This document shows, one piece after another, positions 33,820 to 35,210 of a stretch of 64,000 nt of DNA. The DNA is from Escherichia coli. Lineage in GTDB: Bacteria > Pseudomonadota > Gammaproteobacteria > Enterobacterales > Enterobacteriaceae. The notes under the pieces were generated by a model, which searched no databases, was not told the origin of the DNA, and worked only from the letters and a program-made list of their open reading frames with translations. Position 1 is the stretch's first letter. The number at the start of each line of letters is the position of its first letter. The position numbers were made by a program, and so were the translations under genes. Location of the stretch: the NCBI RefSeq assembly GCF_046105845.1, contig NZ_CP151004.1; one strand, 5' to 3'.

Positions 33820-34308
33820 TTAGCGGACTACCGCGTTGTCAATTTTCTCTTCCGCCTTCCAGATGCGGTACTTCACATCCACATTGTCTGGCGTATACAC
33901 CACGATCGGCAGCTTGCTGTTATAACGCAGCATTCCGGCATCGCCCAGATACGCGGTGACAAATTTCTTCTCTTTCTTGCCATCCGGGCAGGCCATCATC
34001 GTGGAAACCGGCGAGCTAACTTTATCAAAGACGTAATAATCATAGCCCCAGCCTTCCAGCGTTTTGCTTTCCAGCTTCCCGCCGAGACGATGCAAATTGC
34101 AATCGACTTCCAGCGTCTGGCCGATTAACAGTTCTACTTTCAGGGTAGATTCATCTTCTTGCGGGGTTAACTGAATCACCTGACGCTTCATGCCTTTTTC
34201 AGCTTGTGGATAAGGCGCGATTTTTTCCAGTGGCTGGACGCTTTCTGCCGCCCAGGCGGAAGTGGTAGCGAAAGCGGCAAACAATACTGCAGGTAGAATG
34301 GTCTTCAT
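33820..34308 (-). CDS. eco: Ecotin (periplasmic serine protease inhibitor), 162 aa
   Basis: ORF track 33820..34329; start set at ATG 34308 ([20 protein letters not shown]...). Confidence 0.93.
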
Positions 34309-34567
34309 TTTTTTGCTTTCCTTCTTCATTTATAGGTTTTCACCGATGATGTCGCTGAAGGTTAACATATTCATCAGATTTATTAATTTGCTTTATGAAT
34401 AACTTAAAGAACATTCAGATAATTTTACCTGCTCTTTTAGTGTTAAATTCTGATGAGGGAGCAAACCAGCAGAAATATCTCTGGTGAATTAATCGCTATA
34501 TAAATATGTTTATAACCATTTGAAATGTGAGCAAAAGCCCGTTTTTGCCACGCTTCCCGCCACTCTT

Positions 34568-34602
34568 TTGATCCTGCTACAGGTTTTACCCCGATCGGGG
34601 TA
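34568..34602 (+). promoter_or_regulatory. napF control region: FNR-like site and NarP/NarL 7-2-7 palindrome
   Basis: TTGATcctgCTACA (34568-34581) lies 20 bp upstream of the perfect palindrome TACCCCGATCGGGGTA (34587-34602); a TAATAT -10 candidate sits at 34623-34628. Confidence 0.8.
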
Positions 34603-34715
34603 TGCATCTTTGACACATCCTTTAATATCTTAGCGGCTATAAAAATGGCTTATTAATTATGCGGTTTATTTGGTCGCTCTCAATTTTCAGAGCGCGTTAA
34701 TGATGGAAGGTCAAT

Positions 34716-35210
34716 GTGAAGATTGATGCATCCCGTCGGGGCATACTCACTGGTCGCTGGCGCAAAGCCAGTAACGGTATCCGTCCGCCCTGGTCCGGTG
34801 ATGAATCTCATTTTCTGACCCATTGCACCCGCTGCGACGCCTGTATTAATGCTTGTGAAAACAACATTCTGCAACGCGGCGCGGGCGGCTATCCGAGCGT
34901 TAACTTCAAAAATAACGAGTGCAGCTTCTGTTACGCCTGCGCGCAGGCTTGCCCCGAATCGCTATTTTCTCCGCGCCACACCAGGGCCTGGGATTTGCAG
35001 TTCACCATTGGGGACGCGTGCCTGGCGTATCAGTCAGTTGAATGCCGCCGCTGTCAGGATAGCTGTGAGCCAATGGCAATTATCTTTCGCCCGACGCTCT
35101 CCGGGATCTACCAGCCGCAACTTAATAGCCAACTTTGCAACGGATGTGGAGCATGTGCAGCCAGCTGTCCGGTATCAGCCATAACTGCGGAGTATCTCCA
35201 TGCACACTAA
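34716..35210 (+). CDS. napF: Ferredoxin-type protein NapF, 164 aa
   Basis: GTG start; four Cys-cluster motifs; first gene of the nap operon. Confidence 0.93.
   Translation: MKIDASRRGILTGRWRKASNGIRPPWSGDESHFLTHCTRCDACINACENNILQRGAGGYPSVNFKNNECSFCYACAQACPESLFSPRHTRAWDLQFTIGDACLAYQSVECRRCQDSCEPMAIIFRPTLSGIYQPQLNSQLCNGCGACAASCPVSAITAEYLHAH

What the first reader, a model, noticed from the sequence alone, without database searches (positions are those of the whole stretch)
34568..34602. Perfect NarP/NarL 7-2-7 palindrome next to an FNR-like site upstream of napF
TACCCCGATCGGGGTA is a perfect 16-bp inverted heptamer pair. Its centre lies 20 bp downstream of the centre of TTGATcctgCTACA, and a TAATAT -10 candidate follows about 25 bp later. 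This reproduces the known class-II-like FNR (-64.5) plus NarP (-44.5) architecture of napF, and narP itself is encoded 12 kb downstream in the same window.
Basis: partly seen in the sequence, partly recalled or inferred. Interest (0 to 1): 0.25.

Follow-up and report, generated by a model that had tools for sequence, protein, structure and literature searches.

The report
Known E. coli napF promoter sites
This is the well-studied switch in front of the E. coli periplasmic nitrate reductase genes, where the oxygen sensor FNR and the nitrate-responsive regulator NarP bind side by side; it is real and conserved, but already known.

Summary
TTGATCCTGCTACA lies at 34568-34581 and the perfect palindrome TACCCCGATCGGGGTA at 34587-34602, with centres 20 bp apart, 114 bp upstream of a GTG-initiated napF. 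narP lies 12.3 kb downstream on the opposite strand.

The window is E. coli. The 91-bp core (34555-34645) is identical to K-12 MG1655 and to 4918 of 5421 complete E. coli genomes. This is therefore the experimentally characterised napF control region: FNR upstream, a NarP/NarL 7-2-7 site at -40 to -49, activation by FNR and phospho-NarP, antagonism by phospho-NarL.

An ungapped, strongly conserved module from TTGATC to TATCTTA persists in E. albertii, Citrobacter and Leclercia.

- FNR at about -64.5 is an upstream, class-I-type position, not "class-II-like".
- The FNR match is weak (7 of 10) and not distinctive on its own.
- Perfect symmetry is not the conserved feature. O157:H7 and E. albertii carry TACCTCG, and heptamer position 7 varies.
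- The invariant -10 is TATCTT (34626-34631), overlapping TAATAT by 3 bp. TAATAT is more likely the -10 of the minor P2 promoter.

Already known; low interest.

The parts
34568..34581 (.). FNR binding site TTGATCCTGCTACA: perfect left half, degenerate right half; inferred centre -64.5
   Evidence: Sequence; 7 of 10 to TTGAT-N4-ATCAA. TTGATC is invariant in 7 species; the right half is 3 of 5 invariant. A K-12 FNR ChIP peak is annotated napF/yojO with a weak PWM score, ln(p) -5.37.
34587..34602 (.). NarP/NarL 7-2-7 heptamer pair TACCCCG-AT-CGGGGTA, centre -44.5
   Evidence: Sequence. It is the only perfect TACYYM 7-2-7 in the window, against 0.003 expected. 13 of 16 columns are invariant across genera. 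Literature: the napF 7-2-7 site lies at -40 to -49 (PMC4549865), and napF is listed among the four reported 7-2-7 genes (PMC2718512).
34626..34631 (+). TATCTT, inferred -10 hexamer of the major FNR/NarP-activated promoter P1 (-13 to -8 if +1 = 34639)
   Evidence: 6 of 6 invariant in 7 species and retained in the divergent E. coli strain MFDS1006657. The assignment is an inference.
34623..34628 (+).
   Evidence: It overlaps TATCTT with a 3-bp offset. It reads AAATAT in Citrobacter and Leclercia and TTATAT in MFDS1006657. A P2 start 3 nt upstream of P1 is from my memory of Stewart et al. 2003, which was not readable here.
34639..34639 (+). Inferred P1 transcription start (A); P2 would be G34636
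   Evidence: Computed from the NarP site centre (34594.5) at -44.5, the position given by PMC4549865. It is consistent with the ModE-like palindrome falling at -133.5. It is not mapped here.
34494..34517 (.). ModE-like imperfect palindrome CGCTATATAAAT|ATGTTTATAACC, centre 34505.5 = -133.5
   Evidence: Sequence. It is conserved in Escherichia and Citrobacter and absent in Leclercia. ModE activation of nap is stated in PMC8139620. The position -133.5 is from memory.
34523..34544 (.). Conserved block AAATGTGAGCAAAAGCCCGTTT with a perfect CRP left half-site (TGTGA 34526-34530), centre about -105.5
   Evidence: TTGAAATGTGAGCAAAAGC is nearly identical in Escherichia and Citrobacter. A Crp site upstream of the Fnr and NarP sites is from my memory of Stewart et al. 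2009, which is not held.
34716..35210 (+). napF coding sequence (GTG start), first gene of napFDAGHBC
   Evidence: NCBIfam TIGR00402 equivalog, E 2.7e-74; RefSeq annotation in K-12.
46890..47537 (-). narP, the response regulator that binds the 7-2-7 site
   Evidence: NCBIfam NF007708 equivalog, E 7.6e-138, aligned from residue 11 of the ORF. The translation begins MPEATPFQVMIVDDH.

Best explanation
This is the E. coli napFDAGHBC (periplasmic nitrate reductase) control region, identical to that of K-12. Under anaerobiosis, dimeric FNR binds the weak site TTGAT-N4-CTACA centred about 64.5 bp upstream of the major start. In the presence of nitrate or nitrite, NarQ-phosphorylated NarP binds as a dimer to the 7-2-7 heptamer pair TACCCCG-AT-CGGGGTA centred at -44.5, two helical turns downstream on the same face. 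Together they activate promoter P1, whose -10 is probably TATCTT and whose start is inferred at A34639. At high nitrate, phospho-NarL competes for the same 7-2-7 site and antagonises NarP, so the operon is expressed best at low nitrate. Upstream ModE and CRP sites and a second overlapping promoter (P2, -10 probably TAATAT) modulate this.

Shown here: sequence identity with K-12, site geometry, and conservation of the sites and their spacing across genera.
Taken from the literature: binding and the regulatory logic.
Inferred: the exact start point and the assignment of the two -10 hexamers.
For: The sequence at the stated coordinates was read.

Identity with E. coli:
- 34555-34645 is 100% identical to K-12 MG1655.
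- It is identical in 4918 of 5421 complete E. coli genomes; a further 442 carry a single C-to-T allele within the consensus.
- Gene context is eco / yojO / napF-napD-napA ... narP.

Rarity: a perfect TACYYM 7-2-7 is expected 0.003 times per window.

Phylogenetic footprint over E. coli, E. albertii, four Citrobacter and Leclercia:
- The stretch 34568-34632 has no gaps.
- 48 of 65 columns are invariant, against 5 of 53 further upstream.
- TTGATC is 6 of 6 invariant, the NarP site 13 of 16, and TATCTT 6 of 6.
- In Leclercia everything upstream is replaced by a tRNA-Arg gene, yet the module is kept.

Literature:
- napF 7-2-7 site at -40 to -49 (PMC4549865).
- napF is one of four genes with reported 7-2-7 sites (PMC2718512).
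- The NarP-dependent napF::lacZ fusion needs a NarQ kinase (PMC1802743).
- FNR ChIP-seq and ChIP-chip peak at napF/yojO, with co-activation by NarP (PMC3688515).
Against: - The FNR-like site matches the consensus at only 7 of 10 positions. There are 345 equally good matches in the window, including a better but unconserved one in the napF leader at 34670-34683.
- Its ChIP peak was called by only 2 of 4 peak callers, with a weak PWM score.
- The simple sigma-70 scan finds no + strand promoter here. That is expected for an activator-dependent promoter, but it means the -10 and the start are inferred.
- The primary papers that mapped the start and the footprints could not be read. The figure -64.5 therefore rests on the 20-bp spacing plus the -40 to -49 statement and my memory.
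Confidence: 0.95

Rival explanations
1. The architecture is as described, but TAATAT (34623-34628) is the -10 of the FNR/NarP-activated promoter. The start would then be near 34635, with NarP centred near -40.5 and FNR near -60.5.
For: TAATAT is closer to the TATAAT consensus (5 of 6) than TATCTT (4 of 6). No start was mapped here.
Against: - PMC4549865 places the 7-2-7 site at -40 to -49, so its centre is -44.5. That gives +1 = 34639 and puts TATCTT, not TAATAT, at the normal -10 distance.
- TATCTT is invariant in 7 species and in the divergent E. coli strain. TAATAT loses T1 in Citrobacter and Leclercia, and loses the critical A2 in MFDS1006657.
- From memory, two starts 3 nt apart were mapped, matching the 3-bp offset of the two hexamers.
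Confidence: 0.08
2. The conservation of this stretch reflects the annotated small protein gene yojO (34443-34607, minus strand), which reads through both sites, rather than regulatory DNA.
For: RefSeq annotates yojO over this region in K-12 and in many other genomes.
Against: - The ORF is cut to 15-20 codons in E. albertii, Citrobacter and Leclercia, and its start codon is lost in C. werkmanii.
- It matches no NCBIfam family.
- In the divergent E. coli strain MFDS1006657 the body of yojO is scrambled and unannotated while the NarP site is intact.
- Conservation ends exactly where the regulatory module ends.
Confidence: 0.02
3. The palindrome is a chance or structural feature (a hairpin, terminator, or PvuI/Dam-type palindrome) with no regulator bound, and the FNR-like match is coincidental.
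For: Perfect 16-bp palindromes are not rare: 4 occur in the window against 1.24 expected. FNR-like matches at 3 mismatches are everywhere.
Against: - The hairpin is weak: -4.4 kcal/mol, z = -1.76, no T-run.
- It lies upstream of the napF start.
- Conservation is at TACCYC and GGGGTA, not at stem complementarity.
- Spacing to TTGATC and to TATCTT is invariant across genera.
- The sequence is identical to an experimentally characterised promoter.
Confidence: 0.01

Closest known systems
E. coli K-12 napF (aeg-46.5) operon control region, promoters P1/P2 (Choe & Reznikoff; Darwin & Stewart 1995; Darwin et al. 1998; Stewart et al. 2003, 2009; McNicholas & Gunsalus 2002)
   Same: Identical sequence over the core promoter, with the same flanking genes, the same FNR and NarP/NarL sites, and the same spacing.
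   Different: Nothing in the core. Upstream, the window strain differs from K-12 at a few bases, including one in the ModE-like palindrome (G34508 versus A).
NarL/NarP 7-2-7 sites of yeaR (-43.5) and ogt (-44.5 and -77.5)
   Same: An inverted heptamer pair with a 2-bp spacer abutting the -35 region, and a -10 of TATCTT as at ogt (PMC7419079, PMC10853779).
   Different: Those promoters are activated by NarL alone. napF needs FNR as co-activator, prefers NarP, and is antagonised by NarL.
nirB and nrfA promoters (FNR class II at -41.5 with NarL/NarP at about -69.5 or -74.5)
   Same: The same pair of regulators integrating anaerobiosis and nitrate or nitrite.
   Different: The order of the sites is reversed. 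At napF the response regulator is promoter-proximal and FNR is upstream, which is why 'class-II-like FNR' is a mislabel (nir arrangement from PMC10853779; the rest is established knowledge).

Membership tests
NarL/NarP 7-2-7 heptamer-pair binding site | Two heptamers in inverted orientation separated by exactly 2 bp | tested here: met
   TACCCCG-AT-CGGGGTA at 34587-34602 has perfectly complementary arms.
NarL/NarP 7-2-7 heptamer-pair binding site | Heptamer positions 1-6 match TACYYM (consensus TACYYMT-NN-AKRRGTA, letters as in PMC7419079) | tested here: met
   TACCCC in both arms. TACCYC and GGGGTA are invariant across 7 species.
NarL/NarP 7-2-7 heptamer-pair binding site | Heptamer position 7 = T (A in the other arm) | tested here: not met
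   G and C here, giving 2 mismatches to the 16-mer consensus. The position varies (G, A, C) among genera, so it is evidently not critical. The napF site is itself one of the founding examples.
NarL/NarP 7-2-7 heptamer-pair binding site | Bound by phospho-NarP or phospho-NarL, with nitrate- or nitrite-dependent regulation | not testable with these tools
   Literature only: PMC9262595, PMC1802743, PMC4549865, PMC2718512.
FNR binding site (TTGAT-N4-ATCAA) | Match to the 14-bp dyad consensus | tested here: inconclusive
   7 of 10: left half 5 of 5, right half 2 of 5. There are 345 matches of this quality in the window. The published PWM ln(p) of -5.37 is among the weakest bound sites.
FNR binding site (TTGAT-N4-ATCAA) | Conserved across related species at a fixed distance from the promoter | tested here: met
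   TTGATC is invariant. The right half is C-[TA]-A-C-[AT]. There are no indels between it and TATCTT in 7 species.
FNR binding site (TTGAT-N4-ATCAA) | Occupied by FNR in vivo or in vitro | not testable with these tools
   Literature: a ChIP-seq (MOSAiCS) and ChIP-chip peak at napF/yojO in K-12. The in vitro work (Darwin et al. 1998) is not held.
E. coli napF P1 control region (Fnr -64.5 / NarP -44.5) | Sequence identity with the characterised K-12 region and location directly upstream of napF | tested here: met
   100% identity over 34555-34645. napF begins at 34716.
E. coli napF P1 control region (Fnr -64.5 / NarP -44.5) | Transcription start that puts the sites at -64.5 and -44.5 | not testable with these tools
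   Inferred +1 = A34639 from the published -40 to -49. No 5' end data were available, and the primary papers are not held.
Class II FNR-dependent promoter | FNR dyad centred near -41.5, overlapping the -35 region | tested here: not met
   The FNR-like site lies 20 bp upstream of the NarP site, which itself occupies -40 to -49. FNR is therefore near -64.5, an upstream class-I-type position.

The most novel reading that the evidence does not exclude
The only two GATC (Dam) sites in the whole eco-napF intergenic region sit inside the two activator sites: one in the FNR half-site TTGATC and one at the dyad centre of the NarP palindrome CGATCG. Hemimethylation or methylation state could therefore modulate FNR or NarP/NarL binding and tie napF induction to replication. 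Alternatively, the O157:H7 / E. albertii allele TACCTCG could shift the NarP/NarL competition. Neither effect has, to my knowledge, been reported.
Probability: 0.04. Interest if true: 0.3.

Novelty: already known. Interest (0 to 1): 0.05.

Why it matters
It matters only as a positive control. A reader working from raw sequence correctly recognised a textbook dual-activator promoter that tunes periplasmic nitrate reductase to anaerobiosis and low nitrate. The cross-genus footprint gives a clean minimal module, from TTGATC to TATCTTA, 65 bp and ungapped. It also shows which features are actually constrained: TACCYC and GGGGTA, the FNR left half, TATCTT and all the spacings. Perfect symmetry, heptamer position 7 and TAATAT are not constrained. 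No new biology is implied.

Tried and rejected
1. Consensus scans as a test of significance. Both the FNR and the NarL consensus at the observed mismatch level are at or near chance frequency, so they cannot validate the sites. I replaced them with a joint palindrome-plus-half-site test and a phylogenetic footprint.
2. A first shuffle script timed out. I reran it with Markov simulations.
3. Reading the primary papers (PMC107417, PMC193976, PMC135098, PMC2632075). None is held.
4. Full-text searches for '44.5' or '64.5' with napF, and for 'napFp', gave no usable statement of the mapped start. The supplement of PMC9262595 is not held.
5. The sigma-70 consensus scan finds no + strand promoter. 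This is uninformative for an activator-dependent promoter.
6. yojO coding constraint as the cause of conservation: rejected.
7. A hairpin or terminator reading of the palindrome: rejected.
8. The better FNR consensus match at 34670-34683 in the leader is not conserved and is treated as chance.
9. The protein-anchored scan of genome contigs returned only 7 enterobacterial napF loci. The other 14 hits are unrelated ferredoxins and were not used. Salmonella, Yersinia, Pasteurellaceae and Vibrionaceae were not sampled.

Full report
**1. What is in the sequence**

Reading 34200-35100 and 34490-34720 confirms every element at the stated positions.
- TTGATCCTGCTACA is at 34568-34581, centre 34574.5.
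- TACCCCGATCGGGGTA is at 34587-34602, centre 34594.5. It is a perfect 16-bp palindrome, that is, two inverted heptamers around a central AT.
- TAATAT is at 34623-34628.
- The two site centres are exactly 20 bp apart.
- The next gene, 34716-35210 (+ strand, GTG start), is NapF (NCBIfam TIGR00402, E 2.7e-74). It is followed by NapD and NapA.
- NarP (NF007708, E 7.6e-138) is encoded at 46890-47537 on the minus strand, 12.3 kb downstream and convergent with the nap-ccm genes.
- Upstream lie eco (ecotin, 33820-34329, minus strand) and mqo.

**2. Is it more than chance?**

Taken singly, no.
- TTGAT-N4-ATCAA with up to 3 mismatches, which is the quality of this site (7 of 10), matches 345 times in the window. 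One better match, with 2 mismatches, lies in the napF leader at 34670-34683.
- The NarL/NarP consensus TACYYMTNNAKRRGTA with up to 2 mismatches matches 3 times against 2.2 expected.
- Perfect 16-bp palindromes occur 4 times against 1.24 expected, and perfect 7-2-7 inverted heptamers 7 times against 4.6.

The joint property is rare. A perfect 7-2-7 whose arms begin TACYYM occurs once, against a mean of 0.003 in 300 simulations. The real proof is comparative and historical, as follows.

**3. Identity**

The window is E. coli.
- A 501-bp query around the site matches 5421 of 5426 complete E. coli genomes, annotated eco / yojO / napF.
- The K-12 MG1655 sequence upstream of napF (b2208) is base-for-base identical from upstream of the FNR-like site through the napF start codon.
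- The 91-bp core 34555-34645 is 100% identical in 4918 genomes.
- A further 442 genomes, of the O157:H7/O145 lineage, share one allele, TACCTCG-AT-CGGGGTA. This breaks the perfect symmetry but stays within TACYYM.

The finding is therefore the K-12 napF (formerly aeg-46.5) control region.

**4. What is known about that region**

The primary papers are not in the held library. Open-access papers state the essentials:
- NarP binds only 7-2-7 sites, and such sites are reported for fdnG, napF, nirB and nrfA (PMC2718512).
- The napF 7-2-7 site lies at -40 to -49, so its centre is -44.5 (PMC4549865).
- napF is induced by FNR and phospho-NarP and repressed by NarL, because phospho-NarL binding prevents phospho-NarP binding. 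It is therefore expressed best at low nitrate (PMC9262595).
- A napF::lacZ fusion is silent without a kinase able to phosphorylate NarP (PMC1802743).
- FNR-dependent transcription of napF requires co-activation by NarP. An FNR ChIP peak is centred at 2301669 (U00096.2) in the napF/yojO intergenic region. It was called by MOSAiCS and by ChIP-chip but not by two other callers, and its PWM score is weak, ln(p) -5.37, against -13 to -16 for narG and nirB (PMC3688515). By my offset estimate of about +1976 bp to U00096.3, this peak falls within about 10 bp of the site.
- ModE activates nap and IscR represses it (PMC8139620).

From memory, not verified here: FNR is centred at -64.5, ModE at -133.5, there is a Crp site upstream of FNR, and a second promoter P2 starts 3 nt upstream of P1.

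**5. Geometry inferred from the sequence**

If the palindrome centre (34594.5) is -44.5, then +1 is A34639 and the FNR-like site is at -64.5.

The imperfect palindrome CGCTATATAAAT|ATGTTTATAACC (34494-34517) then centres at -133.5. This matches my recollection for ModE and is an independent consistency check.

TAATAT (34623-34628) would lie at -16 to -11, too far from +1. The overlapping TATCTT (34626-34631) lies at -13 to -8. The 3-bp offset between the two hexamers equals the remembered 3-nt offset between the P2 and P1 starts. I therefore assign TATCTT to the FNR/NarP-activated P1 and TAATAT to the minor P2. This is an inference.

The sigma-70 consensus scan finds no + strand promoter here, as expected for a promoter lacking a -35 and dependent on activators. 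TTGACA at 34610-34615 is at the wrong distance from either hexamer.

**6. Phylogenetic footprint**

A protein-anchored scan with NapF recovered napF loci from E. coli, E. albertii, four Citrobacter species or strains, and Leclercia adecarboxylata. The remaining hits were unrelated ferredoxins. Aligning the upstream regions and counting invariant columns gave the following.

| Element | Invariant columns |
|---|---|
| Module 34568-34632 (no gaps in any species) | 48 of 65 |
| Far upstream 34440-34492 | 5 of 53 |
| TTGATC | 6 of 6 |
| FNR right half, C-[T/A]-A-C-[A/T] | 3 of 5 |
| NarP site (variable only at position 5, C/T, and position 7, G/A/C, and its mirror) | 13 of 16 |
| TATCTT | 6 of 6 |
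| TAATAT (AAATAT in Citrobacter and Leclercia) | 5 of 6 |

- In the one strongly divergent E. coli (MFDS1006657) the yojO region is scrambled, the palindrome is intact, TAATAT is TTATAT and TATCTT is kept.
- In Leclercia the region upstream of the module is replaced by a tRNA-Arg gene, so the ModE and CRP blocks are absent, yet the FNR / NarP / -10 module persists.
- What is under constraint is therefore the FNR left half, TACCYC-N4-GGGGTA, TATCTT and all the spacings. Perfect dyad symmetry is not constrained.

**7. Rivals**

- *Coding constraint from yojO.* This annotated small ORF (34443-34607, minus strand) has a start codon abutting the palindrome. It is excluded because the ORF stops after 15-20 codons in every non-coli species and has no family match.
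- *A hairpin or terminator.* The structure is weak (-4.4 kcal/mol, z -1.76), has no T-run, and lies upstream of the napF start.

**8. Verdict**

Corrections:
- FNR at -64.5 is an upstream, class-I-type position. Class II would be -41.5, as at nirB and nrfA, where the order of FNR and NarL/NarP is reversed.
- The FNR site is weak and could not be called from sequence alone.
- The palindrome departs from the consensus at heptamer position 7.
- TATCTT rather than TAATAT is the conserved -10.
- narP is on the other strand.

Everything here is already known, so interest is low. The only unexcluded novel angle is that the two GATC sites of the intergenic region lie exactly in the FNR half-site and at the NarP dyad centre. 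The NarP-centre GATC is not conserved in Citrobacter or Leclercia, which argues against a conserved Dam role.

Noticed in passing
window 34443-34607 (- strand): The annotated small ORF yojO (54 aa) starts 3 bp from the NarP palindrome and reads through the NarP, FNR, CRP-like and ModE-like sites. Outside E. coli the frame stops after 15-20 codons, and the start codon is lost in C. werkmanii. It matches no NCBIfam family. It looks like a spurious annotation over regulatory DNA.
   Followed up: yes
window 34591 (NarP heptamer position 5): 442 of 5421 complete E. coli genomes (O157:H7, O145 and relatives), and also E. albertii, carry TACCTCG instead of TACCCCG. In these lineages the palindrome is imperfect. 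The change stays within the TACYYM consensus.
   Followed up: yes
window 34570-34573 and 34593-34596: The only two GATC (Dam) sites in the eco-napF intergenic region lie inside the FNR left half-site (TTGATC) and at the centre of the NarP dyad (CGATCG). The first is invariant across 7 species. The second is lost in three Citrobacter and in Leclercia (AATT, GATT or CATT).
   Followed up: partly
window 34519-34544: The block TTGAAATGTGAGCAAAAGC is nearly identical in Escherichia and Citrobacter and contains a perfect CRP left half-site (AAATGTGA) with a poor right half, centred at about -105.5. It is probably the Crp site that I remember from Stewart et al. 2009. It is absent in Leclercia.
   Followed up: partly
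window 34494-34517: A ModE-like palindrome is centred at -133.5 relative to the inferred start. The window strain differs from K-12 at one base within it (G34508 versus A).
   Followed up: partly
window 34602-34622: The promoter spacer is unusually conserved; ACACATCCT is invariant in 7 species. ATGCATCTT (34602-34610) resembles an NsrR half-site. In Citrobacter, ACATCCTGAAATATCTTACGGCTA fits my recollection of the IscR type-2 motif (AxxxCCxxAxxxxxxxTAxGG). E. coli has one extra base there. This may be the site of the reported IscR repression.
   Followed up: no
window 34670-34683: TTGGTCGCTCTCAA in the napF leader matches the FNR consensus better (2 mismatches) than the real site (3 mismatches), but it is not conserved in E. 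albertii or Citrobacter. It is a reminder that consensus score alone misleads here.
   Followed up: partly
window 34661-34686: A terminator-like hairpin (GCGGTTTATTTGGTCGC followed by TCTCAATTTT) lies inside the 77-nt napF leader and is partly conserved (TGCGGTTT...GTCG). Its possible role is unexplored. ArcZ-napF mRNA pairing has been reported by RIL-seq (PMC8139620).
   Followed up: no
window 34683-34656 (- strand): A promoter-like site on the opposite strand (TTGAGA, 16-bp spacer, CATAAT; 10 of 12) points towards yojO and eco, so it would be divergent from and overlapping the napF leader. It is a consensus match only.
   Followed up: no
L011 367-443 (Leclercia adecarboxylata): A tRNA-Arg(TCT) gene sits about 110 bp upstream of the FNR half-site, replacing eco, yojO and the ModE and CRP blocks. 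The FNR / NarP / -10 module is nevertheless intact.
   Followed up: partly
window 44872, 47489, 47764: There are three other perfect 16-bp palindromes: GATATTCATGAATATC (inside a ccm gene), GTGGATGATCATCCAC (inside narP) and CAGTTTTTAAAAACTG. The last lies in the intergenic region between narP and an 863-aa ORF at 47857-50448, which may be an intact yejO autotransporter.
   Followed up: no
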